Assembly (NCBI GenBank): GCA_963662715.1
Contig: OY759724.1
Coordinates: 900,001-932,000, forward strand
DNA length: 32,000 nucleotides
Origin: Candidatus Omnitrophota bacterium
GTDB taxonomy: Bacteria; Omnitrophota; Gorgyraeia; Zapsychrales; JANLHA01
Direction: 5' to 3'
The notes under the pieces were generated by a model. It saw nothing but the letters and a program-made list of their open reading frames with translations. It was not told the DNA's origin and ran no database searches. Position numbers and translations under genes: made by a program. Within the stretch, counting starts at the first letter, position 1. Each line of letters begins with the position of its first letter. This document shows, piece after piece, positions 844 through 2,097 of this stretch.

Positions 844-1293
844 TTAGCATCCGAACTCACTCTTTAAATGCTTTAAGAACTTCTGCGTCGCAGGAAAAAC
901 CTTCAACCCCTGTGTATCATCAAGCCTCAACCATCGCCATTCAACAAGCTCAGAAGAATTAAACTCTAATGTAGTGTCCTCAGCAAGATACACCACATAG
1001 AAATAAACCTTACCCTCTCCAAAGTCATAATCCGTAGTAATCGCCAAGCTCATCTTTTGATTAGACAGGTCTAATCCGACTTCCTCTTTTACTTCTCGCA
1101 TAACCGTAGACATTGGGCTCTTATCAATACCCTTTACTCCCCCCCCAGGGGGTTGCCAATGATTTGGAAATCGTCGGGTTTTGACTAGTAGTATTTCTTT
1201 TCTACTATTTAAAATTCCTATTACAGCCACATCACGTCTGGGATTGCGCTCTAACTCCCTCGTCACATCTGAATCATTCTTATCAAAAACCAT
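844..1293 (-). CDS. Nudix hydrolase
   Basis: 149-aa ORF. It has a Nudix box PGGGVKGIDKSPMSTVMREVKEEVGL (REVKEEVGL core, one-residue insertion relative to the MutT box). Its ATG at 1293 directly abuts the stop of the upstream gene at 1294-1296. Confidence 0.85.
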   Translation of the reverse strand: MVFDKNDSDVTRELERNPRRDVAVIGILNSRKEILLVKTRRFPNHWQPPGGGVKGIDKSPMSTVMREVKEEVGLDLSNQKMSLAITTDYDFGEGKVYFYVVYLAEDTTLEFNSSELVEWRWLRLDDTQGLKVFPATQKFLKHLKSEFGC

Positions 1294-2097
1294 TTATTCC
1301 CCACCTGTTTTAAATAAAACAAAAGTAATTATTAGCCCTGCAATGGACGCTAAAGATCCTGAGATATCTAGTGTTTTCTCAACAATTAAAAACTTATCTC
1401 CCTCCAGGACAAAGGGAGCTACACCATTTACAATCAACAAGAAAACAAAAAGCATCCCCAAAATCTTTAAATACTTTTCTATCCTAATAACTTTCGAAAT
1501 AATGTTTCGTAAGGGACGAGGCAAGGATTTCCAACATTTTGCTTCCAAGGAATGATAATCTACCGGATCAGCATGAAATTGACTAGGATAAGGCCACGAC
1601 ATGGTTGCATCACCATGCTGCCCAACATAAGGTGAAGAAGCCTTAGCTTTTAGTCGAAAAAAACAGCCTTTGACAAAAGAGATTCCTTTTTCAAAATGAA
1701 TTGGACGAGCGCTTAAATTTGTCATTGTAATGCCTAAACGTCCTCTAAAGCCCGGATCGGCCGCTGTGCATACAGGTGTTAGCCCCATGGAAAACAATGA
1801 CCCCTTGGAAAATAATAGCAAGAAGTGTTCCTGATCAAGATTGACTTTTTCCATTGTTACTATAGTAAGCGTTTCAAAAGGATTGATCGTATGCGAAGCT
1901 TGCTTTCTTTGACTAGTCTGCTTCTTTTCATAATCATAAGTATACGATATATCCCCAACTCGGAATTCATAACAACAGCCATCAAGTTGTTTGTTGTCAA
2001 AATCCTCAGAAATTAATAAATTATTGTTAACGGCCGCTAAAATATCATCATCTGCCAACAACCCATTATTAGAAGAGTAACTGTTATTGATTCCCAT
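1294..2097 (-). CDS. Divergent dCTP deaminase/dUTPase-fold protein with two C-terminal transmembrane helices
   Basis: 267 aa. The N-terminus LLADDDILAAV..LLISEDFDNKQLDGCCYEFRVGD matches the Dcd pattern (ILSDxDI...I.PFd..q.qpasYDLRLG). The core SKGSLFSMGL...TAADPGFRGRLGITMTN aligns without gaps to E. coli GRSSLARLGL...RIDPGWSGCIVLEFYN. The C-terminus has two hydrophobic helices (ILGMLFVFLLIVNGVAPFVL, ISGSLASIAGLIITFVLF). An AGGAGG SD lies 7 nt upstream of the ATG. Confidence 0.7.
   Translation of the reverse strand: MGINNSYSSNNGLLADDDILAAVNNNLLISEDFDNKQLDGCCYEFRVGDISYTYDYEKKQTSQRKQASHTINPFETLTIVTMEKVNLDQEHFLLLFSKGSLFSMGLTPVCTAADPGFRGRLGITMTNLSARPIHFEKGISFVKGCFFRLKAKASSPYVGQHGDATMSWPYPSQFHADPVDYHSLEAKCWKSLPRPLRNIISKVIRIEKYLKILGMLFVFLLIVNGVAPFVLEGDKFLIVEKTLDISGSLASIAGLIITFVLFKTGGE

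What the first reader, a model, noticed from the sequence alone, without database searches (positions are those of the whole stretch)
844..2097. Probably deaminase-dead Dcd/dUTPase-fold domain fused to two TM helices and abutting a Nudix hydrolase
Seen: the core DPGFRGRLGITMTN aligns without gaps to E. coli Dcd DPGWSGCIVLEFYN (recalled from memory). This puts Thr where the catalytic Glu138 sits, and the GRSSLARLG phosphate-binding motif is SKGSLFSMG here. The protein ends in two hydrophobic helices, which canonical soluble Dcd and Dut lack. The Nudix ATG (1293) directly abuts the Dcd-like stop (1294-1296). Established: in several signalling defence systems a nucleotide-binding domain is coupled to a 2-TM membrane-disrupting effector, and Nudix enzymes degrade nucleotide signals or modified dNTPs. 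Inference: the dUTPase-fold domain may act as a pyrimidine-nucleotide sensor gating a membrane effector (abortive infection), with the Nudix as modulator. Alternatively this is a membrane-anchored dNTP-depleting pair.
Basis: partly seen in the sequence, partly recalled or inferred. Interest (0 to 1): 0.8.

Follow-up and report, generated by a model that had tools for sequence, protein, structure and literature searches.

The report
Membrane dUTPase-fold, Nudix, flavin-reductase defence module
A membrane-anchored protein with the dCTP-deaminase/dUTPase fold, which has lost the deaminase residues, sits in a tight three-gene operon with a Nudix hydrolase and an Old-Yellow-Enzyme-type flavin reductase; this undescribed module recurs in phage-defence islands and on plasmids of many bacteria, so it is probably a new nucleotide-based defence system.

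Summary
Window 1294-2097(-) encodes a 267-aa protein with a Dcd/dUTPase-fold head (Pfam PF22769, AF2 pLDDT 86). Its best structural matches are archaeal dUTPases and Dcd-DUT. It has Thr at the deaminase Glu position and two C-terminal hydrophobic helices. Its stop codon abuts the ATG of a Nudix gene with an intact REx2EE box.

An OYE-type FMN reductase (window 3-818, cut by the window edge, 360 aa in the genome) follows 25 nt downstream.

- The close subfamily always shows the order Dcd-2TM, Nudix, OYE.
- In a broader family (about 220 clusters at E<=1e-10) the OYE-like gene is the constant partner.
- The middle slot holds Nudix, a MazG-like protein, a soluble Dcd, or nothing. A natural Nudix-Dcd-2TM fusion exists.
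- Other members carry a bacterial Death-like adaptor, PNP or PRTase-CE domains.
- Neighbours include SIR2-HerA (here), Gabija, a type IV restriction enzyme, ORC-CDC6-like systems, integrases and plasmids.
- The window copy lies in a low-GC island and was not found in the 12 same-family genomes searched.
- PADLOC and ten literature searches found no description of the module.

The mechanism is unproven. I favour a pyrimidine-nucleotide-binding trimer that controls its own membrane hairpin, with the pyrophosphatase and reductase processing the ligand. An enzymatic dNTP-depleting set is nearly as likely.

The parts
1294..2097 (-). Gene 1: a 267-aa protein with a Dcd/dUTPase-fold head and a C-terminal 2-TM hairpin. 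It has its own AGGAGG ribosome-binding site, and a 98-nt gap lies upstream.
   Evidence: ORF. PF22769 at 49.1 bits. AF2 pLDDT 86. Foldseek top hits are the archaeal dUTPases 9ln0/8y1w and Dcd-DUT, E about 1e-13.
1672..2058 (-). Dcd/dUTPase-fold beta domain (residues 14-142). Motif II is K98-G-S-L-F-S103. Motif III is A-D114-P-G-F. Thr124 sits at the deaminase Glu position. K143 sits at the motif IV Gln position.
   Evidence: D114 is kept in 114/116 members, E83/G105/N127 in 116/116, and Glu occurs in 0/116 at position 124.
1585..1629 (-). Lid-like segment Y157-x-G-Q-H-G-D-A-x-x-x-W-P-Y-P (residues 157-171). It aligns with the C-terminal arm of Dcd/dUTPases and leads into the membrane hairpin.
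   Evidence: Invariant in the close subfamily. In the broad family Y is kept in 92, G in 94 and H161 in 77 of 116. In one search only its first residues are aligned: Y157-H161 to 8y1w, through T165 to 9ln0. The correspondence of the full motif to the Dcd C-terminal arm is recalled, not aligned here.
1405..1476 (-). TM helix 1 (residues about 208-231), with a mid-membrane Asn224 and a preceding K/R-rich amphipathic stretch.
   Evidence: Hydropathy. AF2 helix 194-230. Asn in 24 of 30 close members plus Asp in 3.
1309..1374 (-). TM helix 2 (residues about 242-263), with a small-residue packing motif G247-x-x-A250-S251-x-x-G254 and a K/R-rich tail.
844..1293 (-). Gene 2: a 149-aa Nudix hydrolase. 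Its ATG directly abuts the stop codon of gene 1, which suggests translational coupling.
   Evidence: PF00293 at 67.1 bits. Weak MutT-like hits. PADLOC PDC-S07 at 8.9e-12. Conserved partner in L001-L010.
1072..1140 (-). Nudix box (residues 52-74). R66-E67-x-x-E70-E71-x-G73 is intact. The first Glu is replaced by Asp57, one residue upstream.
   Evidence: Alignment A4: R66, E67, E70 and E71 are invariant, including in the fused Nudix of P0058.
3..818 (-). Gene 3, the first 272 of 360 codons: an OYE-type FMN ene-reductase. The gene continues 264 nt beyond the window's left edge (genome 899736-900818 = L012:11736-12818). It starts 25 nt after the Nudix stop.
   Evidence: PF00724 at 72.6 bits. The profile of partner OYEs matches YqjM-type OYEs at E about 1e-64 and FadH at 3e-45. 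His166/His169/Tyr171, Thr33, Gln103 and Arg215 are invariant. The family ends in a C-terminal C-x5-C-H-Y-Y-S...C motif.

Best explanation
Window 1294-2097, 844-1293 and 3-818 (continuing past the edge) form one horizontally mobile, three-gene, nucleotide-centred conflict module of the anti-phage-defence type. It has not been described.

Shown:
- Gene 1 is a dUTPase/Dcd-fold protein that lacks both deaminase residues (Glu to Thr, Arg to Ser).
- It keeps the dUTPase-type Asp, a Lys-rich phosphate-binding set and a conserved lid motif.
- It ends in a conserved hairpin of two membrane helices.
- It is co-inherited with an OYE-type flavin reductase and an interchangeable NTP pyrophosphatase, which is Nudix here.
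- The module lives in defence islands and on plasmids.

Inferred mechanism:
- The head trimerises like all Dcd/dUTPases and binds a pyrimidine (deoxy)nucleoside triphosphate. It may hydrolyse it slowly, acting as a timer.
- The lid that closes over the bound nucleotide runs straight into the membrane hairpin. Nucleotide occupancy would therefore be transmitted to a six-helix membrane bundle with an Asn ring and small-residue packing.
- The bundle would open or perturb the membrane and abort infection.
- The Nudix (or MazG) pyrophosphatase and the OYE reductase act on the same nucleotide. One removes it, giving a resting state or reset. The other chemically alters the base, most plausibly by reducing an activated C=C bond.
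- Together they would set when the head is occupied.

My confidence that this is a functionally linked conflict module is about 0.75. My confidence in the gating mechanism as stated is about 0.4.
For: Linkage:
- The order Dcd-2TM, Nudix, OYE is found in every sufficiently long locus of the close subfamily: the window, L001-L007 and L009. L008 and L010 are cut after the Nudix.
- In the broad family, Dcd-2TM is followed directly by OYE in L013, L020 and L021.
- The order Dcd-2TM, MazG-like, OYE occurs in L022 and L024, in Rhizobium and Sinorhizobium plasmids, and in a Priestia plasmid.
- P0063 has OYE, a soluble Dcd, then Dcd-TM.
- The reciprocal check from the OYE side found Dcd-2TM, OYE, MazG, HAD in gut Clostridia (P0277).
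- A Rosetta-stone fusion Nudix-Dcd-2TM exists. Its Nudix is 34% identical to the window's.
- Genes abut or overlap: 0 nt here, and 4-29 nt overlaps elsewhere.

Conflict context:
- SIR2 (9e-104) and HerA (1e-201) lie immediately downstream in the genome.
- GajA/GajB, a type IV restriction enzyme, PDC-S60 and a CARF-like gene are neighbours in other loci.
- ORC-CDC6-like neighbours occur in three loci.
- Fusions to bDLD3 Death-like adaptors, PNP and PRTase-CE exist.
- An integrase is adjacent in L030.
- Five plasmid records carry the gene and no phage record does.
- The island has 33-43% GC against 45-52% in the flanks.
- No match was found in the 12 same-family genomes and 2 same-genus genomes searched.

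Head and membrane part:
-.
- K/R residues on both cytoplasmic flanks fit an N-in/C-in hairpin.

Precedents:
- Kongming KomB is a house-cleaning NTP pyrophosphatase fold with a substituted catalytic residue. It senses dITP in a three-gene operon with a base-modifying enzyme (bioRxiv 10.1101/2024.12.20.629578).
- A staphylococcal phage trimeric dUTPase described as a G-protein-like switch is among the fold hits (3zf3).
Against: - No experiment or structure of the oligomer is available here. Trimerisation and lid-to-membrane coupling are inferred from the fold family.
- Asp114 is invariant and the nearest solved relatives are active dUTPases, so the head may simply be an enzyme.
- The gating model gives the OYE reductase no compelling role.
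- A few family contexts look metabolic rather than defensive. P0035 sits with NDK, a canonical Dcd and a DHO_dh/Fer4 gene. P0277 sits with HAD and radical SAM genes.
- Defence-island association is guilt by association on about 14 contexts. It is not a genome-wide enrichment statistic.
- The promoter/terminator scan was uninformative.
Confidence: 0.42

Rival explanations
1. Enzymatic depletion or sanitising set. The Dcd-like head is an active, membrane-tethered pyrimidine dNTP pyrophosphatase of the archaeal dUTPase type. Together with a second pyrophosphatase (Nudix or MazG) and a reductase that makes the product unusable, it destroys dNTPs, or phage-specific modified dNTPs, during infection. 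The two helices are only an anchor or an activity regulator.
For: - The closest solved relatives are active dUTPases that also lack the deaminase Glu.
- Asp114 is kept in 114/116 members and E83/G105/N127 are invariant.
- All partners and fused domains are nucleotide-processing enzymes: Nudix, MazG, soluble Dcd, PNP, PRTase-CE and HAD, with dNK, TMK-like and NDK genes nearby.
- dNTP depletion is an established defence strategy (general knowledge: dCTP deaminase and dGTPase systems).
Against: - The motif II Ser is poorly kept (S100 in 54/116) and the motif IV Gln is replaced by Lys.
- Two or three pyrophosphatases in one operon look redundant.
- A simple anchor does not explain the conserved mid-membrane Asn and the G-x-x-A-S-x-x-G packing motif.
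- It also does not explain the near-universal retention of the hairpin (111/116).
Confidence: 0.3
2. Synthesis of an altered nucleotide. The OYE-type reductase makes a base-reduced pyrimidine nucleotide, such as a 5,6-dihydro form, that itself poisons phage replication in the manner of viperin products. The pyrophosphatases would protect the host pool, and the membrane protein would act as a store, exporter or self-immunity factor.
For: - The OYE catalytic set His-His-Tyr and the FMN-binding residues are invariant.
- The OYE is the most constant partner.
- A Dus cross-hit appears in two partner OYEs.
- A DHO_dh/Fer4 (dihydropyrimidine-dehydrogenase-like) gene lies near one family member.
- Nucleotide kinases occur in several loci.
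Against: - I know of no OYE shown to reduce a pyrimidine nucleotide.
- The substrate is a guess.
- The Dus and DHO_dh hints are weak or possibly coincidental.
- The model gives the conserved nucleotide-binding head no clear job.
Confidence: 0.12
3. Housekeeping operon. This would be a house-cleaning or oxidative-stress set (dUTPase, MutT-like Nudix, OYE) that supplies the dUTPase this lineage otherwise lacks.
For: - The genome has no other PF22769, PF00692 or PF08761 gene.
- Nudix, MazG and dUTPase are classic house-cleaning enzymes, and OYEs respond to oxidative stress (general knowledge).
Against: - None of the 25 relatives searched has a trimeric dUTPase.
- No Dcd-2TM match was found in the 12 same-family and 2 same-genus genomes searched.
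- So the lineage appears to manage without either, and this gene is accessory.
- It lies in a low-GC island between SIR2-HerA and an HNH/helicase operon.
- The family occurs on plasmids, next to integrases, and fused to Death-like adaptors.
Confidence: 0.08

Closest known systems
Canonical dCTP deaminase (Dcd), bifunctional Dcd-DUT and archaeal Dcd-like dUTPases (e.g. PDB 1xs1, 2qxx, 1ogh, 8y1w, 9ln0)
   Same: - Same beta-fold: Foldseek E 1e-12 to 1e-14, TM-score to target 0.7-0.85.
- Same D-P-G-F/W motif III Asp, G105 and N127, and a Y-x-G...-type C-terminal arm.
- The archaeal dUTPases also lack the deaminase Glu.
   Different: - No Glu138 or Arg115 equivalents.
- Lys replaces the motif IV Gln, and His sits in the lid.
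- About 100 extra C-terminal residues form a 2-TM hairpin.
- The score is below the NCBIfam equivalog cut-off.
- The gene is accessory and island-borne, not housekeeping.
Kongming (KomABC) dITP-signalling defence
   Same: - Three-gene operon in defence neighbourhoods.
- A house-cleaning NTP-pyrophosphatase fold with a substituted catalytic residue that keeps its nucleotide-binding residues.
- Pairing with a base-modifying enzyme.
- Variable nucleotide-metabolism partners.
   Different: - The fold differs: HAM1/ITPase there, dUTPase here.
- The base-modifying enzyme is a deaminase there and an OYE reductase here.
- The effector is SIR2 NADase there and a built-in membrane hairpin here.
- Here the hydrolytic Asp is retained.
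- No experimental data exist for this module.
Nucleotide-gated membrane effectors of CBASS/Pycsar (e.g. Cap15, PycTM); general knowledge, not tested here
   Same: A cytoplasmic nucleotide-binding domain is fused to two membrane helices, and the genes sit in defence islands.
   Different: The binding domain is unrelated. There is no cyclase in the operon, and the ligand would be a (modified) dNTP rather than a cyclic nucleotide.
dNTP-depleting defence enzymes (defensive dCTP deaminase/AvcD, dGTPase); general knowledge
   Same: The target is the deoxynucleotide pool, and the genes sit in defence islands.
   Different: Those deaminases have the zinc cytidine-deaminase fold. This protein has the Dcd/dUTPase fold without the deaminase residues, and adds a membrane part and an OYE partner.
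Staphylococcal phage trimeric dUTPases acting as signalling switches (PDB 3zf3)
   Same: A trimeric dUTPase whose nucleotide-dependent lid ordering is used as a switch. It is among the fold hits.
   Different: That protein is phage-encoded, soluble and acts on a repressor. Here the protein is host- or plasmid-encoded and membrane-anchored.
YqjM-class Old Yellow Enzymes and FadH-type enzymes
   Same: The TIM-barrel FMN domain keeps the His-His-Tyr set. The profile E-value is 1e-64 to 3gr7/1z41 and 3e-45 to FadH 1ps9.
   Different: It forms a distinct subfamily that ends in a C-x5-C-H-Y-Y-S...C metal-binding-like motif. It has no NAD(P)H/FAD domain like FadH, and it is always found beside a Dcd-2TM gene in the loci examined.

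Membership tests
dCTP deaminase (Dcd, EC 3.5.4.13 / TIGR02274) | Dcd/dUTPase beta-fold | tested here: met
   PF22769 at 49.1 bits against a cut-off of 27. Foldseek to 1xs1, 2qxx and 4xjc gives E about 1e-12.
dCTP deaminase (Dcd, EC 3.5.4.13 / TIGR02274) | Catalytic Glu (E. coli E138 / M. tuberculosis E129) and its partner Arg (R115) | tested here: not met
   Thr124 and Ser103 occupy the aligned positions. 0 of 116 family members have Glu, while the canonical controls do.
dCTP deaminase (Dcd, EC 3.5.4.13 / TIGR02274) | Score above the curated equivalog cut-off | tested here: not met
   55.4 bits against a cut-off of 92.8.
Trimeric dUTPase (functional class) | Motif III catalytic Asp | tested here: met
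   D114 is kept in 114/116 members.
Trimeric dUTPase (functional class) | Motif II Ser, motif IV Gln and a canonical motif V | tested here: inconclusive
   S100 is kept in only 54/116 members. Lys replaces the Gln in 86/116. The lid has its own G-Q-H-G consensus. PF00692 does not match the window protein at E<=0.01.
Trimeric dUTPase (functional class) | dUTP hydrolysis and homotrimer formation | not testable with these tools
   This needs an enzyme assay and an oligomer structure. Only a monomer could be modelled.
Nudix hydrolase | Nudix fold and the catalytic R-E-x-x-E-E box | tested here: met
   PF00293 at 67.1 bits. R66, E67, E70 and E71 are invariant among partners. No equivalog cut-off is reached, so the substrate is unknown.
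Old Yellow Enzyme family (PF00724, YqjM class) | FMN TIM barrel with the His-x-x-His-Gly-Tyr substrate and proton-donor set | tested here: met
   PF00724 at 72.6 bits. H166, H169 and Y171 are invariant. 115 of 120 homologues have the motif.
FadH/TMADH-type Fe-S flavoenzymes | A four-Cys 4Fe-4S site plus a C-terminal FAD/NAD(P)H domain | tested here: not met
   The protein ends right after the Cys motif, so there is no second domain. Only 3 Cys plus His are constant, and C-x2-C-x2-C...C occurs in 54/120. The metal identity cannot be determined here.
Any defence system in PADLOC-DB v2 | Profile match of the signature proteins | tested here: not met
   The Dcd-2TM and the OYE have no hit. Only the Nudix resembles the single-gene candidate PDC-S07.
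Kongming (KomA adenosine deaminase, KomB HAM1, KomC SIR2) | Domain composition | tested here: not met
   None of the three genes has ADA, HAM1 or SIR2 domains. The SIR2 next door belongs to a SIR2-HerA pair and is not conserved with the module.

The most novel reading that the evidence does not exclude
This could be a pyrimidine counterpart of Kongming with a built-in effector. On infection, an OYE-type reductase would produce a base-reduced pyrimidine deoxynucleotide, for example a 5,6-dihydro form, as an immune signal. The NTP pyrophosphatase (Nudix, MazG or a soluble Dcd) would keep the signal at zero in healthy cells. A deaminase-dead dUTPase-fold trimer would read the signal and directly open its own six-helix membrane pore. 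That would be a new class of signal, made by flavin-dependent base reduction, and a new class of ligand-gated membrane effector.
Probability: 0.15. Interest if true: 0.9.

Novelty: new variant of a known kind. Interest (0 to 1): 0.78.

Why it matters
If the module defends against phages, it adds a system built from parts not seen together in any described defence system. These are a dUTPase-fold protein wired to the membrane, an interchangeable house-cleaning pyrophosphatase and an Old-Yellow-Enzyme reductase.

No flavin ene-reductase appears in the PADLOC v2 models, and none turned up in the literature I could search, so its substrate could reveal new nucleotide chemistry. The lid-to-hairpin layout also offers a simple, testable model for how nucleotide binding could gate a membrane effector.

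The module is widespread. It occurs in rhizobial and Bacillus-group plasmids, gut Clostridia, Acidobacteria and many metagenomes. It is small (about 2.4 kb), and culturable hosts carry it, so it is directly testable. Its fusions to Death-like adaptors, PNP and PRTase-CE link it to the larger NTPase-based conflict systems, where it may serve as an exchangeable effector cassette.

Tried and rejected
- **Literature.** Ten full-text searches found no description of the module. They covered dCTP deaminase with Nudix and transmembrane, OYE with Nudix and anti-phage, dCTP deaminase-like, 8Y1W, dUTPase with defence island, Oxidored_FMN, Death-like domain with dUTPase, PF22769 and Kongming. The 2020 eLife conflict-systems paper does not mention dUTPase or Dcd.
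- **PADLOC.** The Dcd-2TM and the OYE have no hit.
- **Public genomes and phages.** The species-representative genome scan with family-specific peptide patterns found one relative, an Acidobacteriaceae MAG. The phage collection gave no match.
- **Nudix as the universal partner.** Rejected. MazG-like, a soluble Dcd or nothing fills that slot in other subfamilies.
- **Upstream HNH, SLFN-helicase-S24 and MazG-like genes as part of the module.** Rejected. They have no counterparts in L001-L010. The window's MazG-like protein is nevertheless 27-31% identical to the in-module MazG-likes elsewhere.
- **The lineage's housekeeping Dcd or Dut.** Rejected as the main reading.
- **Fe-S assignment for the OYE C-terminus.** Left open. 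Only Cys3-His is constant, so it could be a zinc site.
- **Promoter/terminator scan.** Counts did not exceed shuffles, so it is uninformative.
- **Co-evolution.** Pairwise identities of Dcd-2TM and OYE correlate only moderately (Spearman 0.40, pairs not independent). The window copy is a recombinant: its Dcd and Nudix are of one subtype, and its OYE is closest to the Priestia-type modules.
- **Not done.** The oligomer and the complex could not be modelled with the tools available. The organism's name could not be obtained.
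Full report
**1. What is in the window**

Three genes lie head to tail on the minus strand.
- Window 1294-2097 encodes 267 aa.
- Window 844-1293 encodes 149 aa.
- Window 3-818 is an ORF that runs off the left edge.

The stop codon of the first gene (TAA, 1296-1294) is followed at once by the ATG of the second (1293-1291). 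The third gene starts 25 nt after the second ends. In the whole genome the window is G000:C1:900001-932000. There the third gene is complete at 360 aa (L012:11736-12818).

**2. Gene 1**

- Pfam assigns residues 14-142 to PF22769, 'dCTP deaminase-like' (49.1 bits, cut-off 27).
- The NCBIfam Dcd equivalog model scores 55.4 bits against a cut-off of 92.8.
- The best solved relatives by sequence are two 155-aa 'dCTP deaminase' chains (8y1w, 9ln0; E about 1e-10). Their entry titles call them dUTPases of Thermococcus pacificus and 'P45'. Next comes M. tuberculosis Dcd-DUT.
- An AlphaFold2 model built on 27 homologues has mean pLDDT 86. It shows a beta-domain (residues 11-148), a loop-rich segment, and two long C-terminal helices (194-230 and 234-264).
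- Foldseek places the head with the archaeal dUTPases, Dcd-DUT and E. coli Dcd (E 1e-14 to 1e-11, TM-score to target 0.7-0.85).

*Catalytic residues.* In the HMMER alignment to M. tuberculosis Dcd-DUT, Thr124 aligns with the Glu of L-E-L and Ser103 aligns with the Arg of G-R-L-G. I then aligned 116 family members of 240-320 aa with canonical Dcds as controls.

| Position (window protein) | Role in canonical Dcd/dUTPase | Residues in 116 family members |
|---|---|---|
| 124 | deaminase Glu | T64, V29, S6, I6, A4, C3, four others; no Glu |
| 103 | partner Arg | Ser in 83 |
| 143 | motif IV Gln | Lys in 86 |
| 114 | motif III Asp | Asp in 114 |
| 83, 105, 127 | E83, G105, N127 | invariant (116/116) |

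The canonical controls show Glu at position 124. The deaminase chemistry is therefore lost family-wide. The Asp that activates water in dUTPases is kept. The archaeal dUTPases also lack the Glu (Met there). So 'deaminase-dead' is right, but 'inactive' does not follow.

*Lid.* A segment Y157-x-G-Q-H-G-D-A...W-P-Y-P aligns with the C-terminal arm of Dcd/dUTPases. It is invariant in the close subfamily and largely kept in the broad family.

*Membrane part.*
- Two hydrophobic stretches (about 208-231 and 242-263) pass a Kyte-Doolittle threshold of 1.6 over 19 residues. They are present in 111 of 116 members.
- TM1 has a mid-helix Asn: 24 of 30 close members, with Asp in 3 more.
- TM2 has a G-x-x-A-S-x-x-G small-residue pattern.
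- Both cytoplasmic flanks are K/R-rich, which fits an N-in/C-in hairpin with the head in the cytoplasm.

**3. Genes 2 and 3**

*Gene 2* is a Nudix hydrolase (PF00293, 67.1 bits). R66-E67-x-x-E70-E71 is intact and invariant among its orthologues. It reaches no equivalog cut-off, and its best weak hit is MutT. It also resembles the PADLOC single-gene candidate PDC-S07 (8.9e-12).

*Gene 3* is an Old-Yellow-Enzyme-type FMN oxidoreductase (PF00724, 72.6 bits).
- A profile of five partner OYEs matches YqjM-class enzymes at E about 1e-64 and FadH at 3e-45.
- The His-x-x-His-Gly-Tyr set, Thr33, Gln103 and Arg215 are invariant.
- The subfamily ends in a hallmark C-x5-C-H-Y-Y-S...C motif. It is extended to C-x2-C-x2-C...C in 54 of 120 homologues.
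- There is no second FAD/NAD(P)H domain. I cannot tell whether the motif binds Fe-S or zinc.

**4. The unit is a conserved module**

The close relatives of gene 1 are rare. There are 29 clusters among 5.8 billion proteins, all 188-293 aa. One was found in the species-representative genomes, an Acidobacteriaceae MAG. Seven loci were found in metagenomes. In every locus long enough to tell, the order is Dcd-2TM, Nudix, OYE.

A profile search of 1.84 billion representatives found 43 clusters at E<=1e-30 and 222 at E<=1e-10. Nearly all are 255-310 aa with C-terminal hydrophobic segments.

Contexts in this broader family:

| Locus / protein | Gene order or neighbours |
|---|---|
| L013, L020, L021 | Dcd-2TM, OYE |
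| L022, L024 | Dcd-2TM, MazG-like, OYE |
| Rhizobium beringeri pRlX2; S. meliloti pSmeRU11d and the SM11 plasmid | Dcd-2TM, MazG-like, OYE |
| Priestia megaterium plasmids | Dcd-2TM, MazG-like, OYE; the MazG-like reading frame looks frameshifted |
| P0063 | OYE, soluble Dcd, Dcd-TM |
| P0277 (gut Clostridia; indexed in 137 collection blocks; search started from an OYE homologue) | Dcd-2TM, OYE, MazG, HAD |
| P0035 | exception: NDK, canonical Dcd, a DHO_dh/Fer4 gene |
| P0114 | exception: deoxynucleoside kinase; short contig |
| P0058 | exception: downstream gene cut off |

The OYE-like reductase is therefore the constant partner. The middle slot is filled by non-homologous NTP pyrophosphatases. 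P0058 is a natural Nudix-Dcd-2TM fusion, and its Nudix is 34% identical to the window's. Genes abut or overlap in most loci.

Pairwise identities of Dcd-2TM and OYE correlate moderately (Spearman 0.40, pairs not independent). The window copy is a recombinant. Its OYE is 42-49% identical to the Priestia-type OYEs but only about 25% identical to the OYEs of its own Dcd subtype.

**5. Setting**

*In this genome.* SIR2 (PADLOC 9e-104) and HerA (1e-201) lie directly downstream. Upstream, all on the same strand, lies an operon of an HNH protein, a Schlafen-type helicase fused to an S24 peptidase, and a MazG-like protein. This whole stretch has 33-43% GC against 45-52% from the enolase gene onwards. 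No match to the gene was found in the 12 same-family genomes and 2 same-genus genomes searched.

*Is it the missing housekeeping enzyme?* The genome has no other Dcd, no trimeric dUTPase and no dimeric dUTPase. But none of the 25 relatives searched has a trimeric dUTPase either. The gene is therefore an accessory acquisition, not the lineage's missing housekeeping enzyme.

*Elsewhere.* The module sits next to:
- Gabija (GajA 1e-279, GajB 7e-248), a type IV restriction enzyme, PDC-S60 and a CARF-like gene;
- ORC-CDC6-like genes in three loci;
- a pPIWI-associated nuclease and an ArdC-like gene;
- HicA and RadC;
- an integrase.

Five plasmid records carry it and no phage record does. Family members are also fused to a bacterial Death-like domain (bDLD3), with a PNP-bDLD3 gene beside it, and to PNP, PRTase-CE, an AAA ATPase or a second Dcd domain.

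**6. How it most likely works**

*Shown.* The module combines a nucleotide-binding fold without deaminase residues, a conserved membrane hairpin, an intact pyrophosphatase and an intact ene-reductase. These are co-inherited and live in mobile, defence-rich settings.

*Inferred.* The head trimerises like its relatives. In those enzymes the C-terminal arm closes over the bound nucleotide. Here that arm runs straight into the hairpin, so occupancy could be passed to a six-helix bundle that has a polar Asn ring. I take this as the best single model. In it, the pyrophosphatase and the reductase act on the ligand.

*Precedents.* Kongming's KomB is a HAM1-type pyrophosphatase with a substituted catalytic residue. 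It senses dITP and works with a base-modifying enzyme. Phage dUTPases used as lid-driven switches are a second precedent (3zf3 title).

*Nearest rival.* The head is simply an active, tethered dNTP pyrophosphatase, and the set depletes or sanitises nucleotides. The invariant Asp and the all-enzymatic partners favour this rival. The conserved membrane motifs and the redundancy of pyrophosphatases argue against it.

No model assigns the OYE a role with evidence. Reduction of an activated C=C in a pyrimidine base is chemically the natural guess, but it is only a guess.

**7. Comparison and novelty**

By fold the protein belongs to the Dcd/dUTPase superfamily and to Pfam PF22769. It fails the defining catalytic test for Dcd. 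It cannot be called a dUTPase without an assay. The module matches no PADLOC system, and none turned up in ten literature searches. I file it as a new variant within the known kind 'nucleotide-centred defence modules'. The specific parts list is unprecedented.

**8. Limits**

- There is no experiment, no oligomer model and no genome-wide enrichment statistic.
- About 14 contexts were inspected.
- The organism's name was not available.
- The metal site and all substrates are unknown.

Noticed in passing
L012:8649-11589 (genome 896649-899589, just left of the window): A SIR2-HerA defence pair lies directly downstream of the module on the same strand (PADLOC SIR2 9e-104, HerA 1e-201).
   Followed up: partly
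window 2196-5655 (-): A tightly packed operon holds three genes: a MazG-like protein (115 aa), a Schlafen-group-3/DUF2075 helicase fused to an S24 (LexA-like) peptidase (801 aa, with weak AbiO/Nhi/PDC-S41 hits), and an HNH protein (235 aa). It is probably a separate defence system. It is not conserved with the module in other loci. Its MazG-like protein is 27-31% identical to the MazG-likes that sit inside the module elsewhere.
   Followed up: partly
window 1-7000 plus L012:1-12000: A low-GC island (33-43%) of at least 19 kb ends at the enolase gene (window 7420-8691). From there GC rises to 45-52%. The left border was not reached.
   Followed up: partly
L012:2396-3034 (-): A 212-aa ORF in the same island matches the PADLOC DRT-associated 'RTasDnaG-like' model (2e-16). 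Several neighbouring ORFs have no family match.
   Followed up: no
whole genome G000 and 25 relatives: No trimeric dUTPase (PF00692) was found in this genome or in any of the 25 same-genus, same-family or same-order genomes searched. This genome also has no dimeric dUTPase (PF08761) and no second Dcd. How the lineage controls dUTP is unclear.
   Followed up: partly
L009:2278-6950; L020:5020-6159; L027:8073-12648: ORC-CDC6-like ATPase genes lie next to the module in three independent loci. Their companions are HD-CE, a protein kinase, or a metallophosphoesterase plus a DNA methylase. One family member (P0071) is fused to PRTase-CE. In L009 a CARF-like gene ends 9 nt before the Dcd-2TM start. 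This may reflect a functional link rather than mere co-residence.
   Followed up: no
L026:6771-7125 (Priestia megaterium plasmid pB1.1): The MazG-like gene between the Dcd-2TM and the OYE appears split over two reading frames. This is either a frameshifted pseudogene or a sequencing error. The plasmid record annotates nothing there.
   Followed up: partly
L018/L019 (context of P0035): A distant Dcd-TM family member sits among nucleotide-metabolism genes: a DHO_dh with ferredoxin-like motifs, NDK, a canonical 203-aa Dcd, dGTP_diPhyd_N and a 365-aa Nudix. CDC48 and Trm112 genes nearby suggest an archaeon. This is a non-island, metabolic-looking context that does not fit the defence reading.
   Followed up: no
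L031-L034 (context of P0277): The gut-Clostridia version of the module is very common, indexed in 137 blocks of the collection. It is followed by a HAD hydrolase and a 672-aa radical SAM protein of the Radical_SAM_N/DUF3362 type, and preceded by an LRR protein.
   Followed up: no
window 14195-17760 and 22514-24556 (-): Three large TPR-repeat proteins of about 590-680 aa are present, two of them adjacent. The rest of the window looks ordinary: PurN-like formyltransferase, MFS transporter, FtsH, SNF-family symporter and H+-pyrophosphatase.
   Followed up: no
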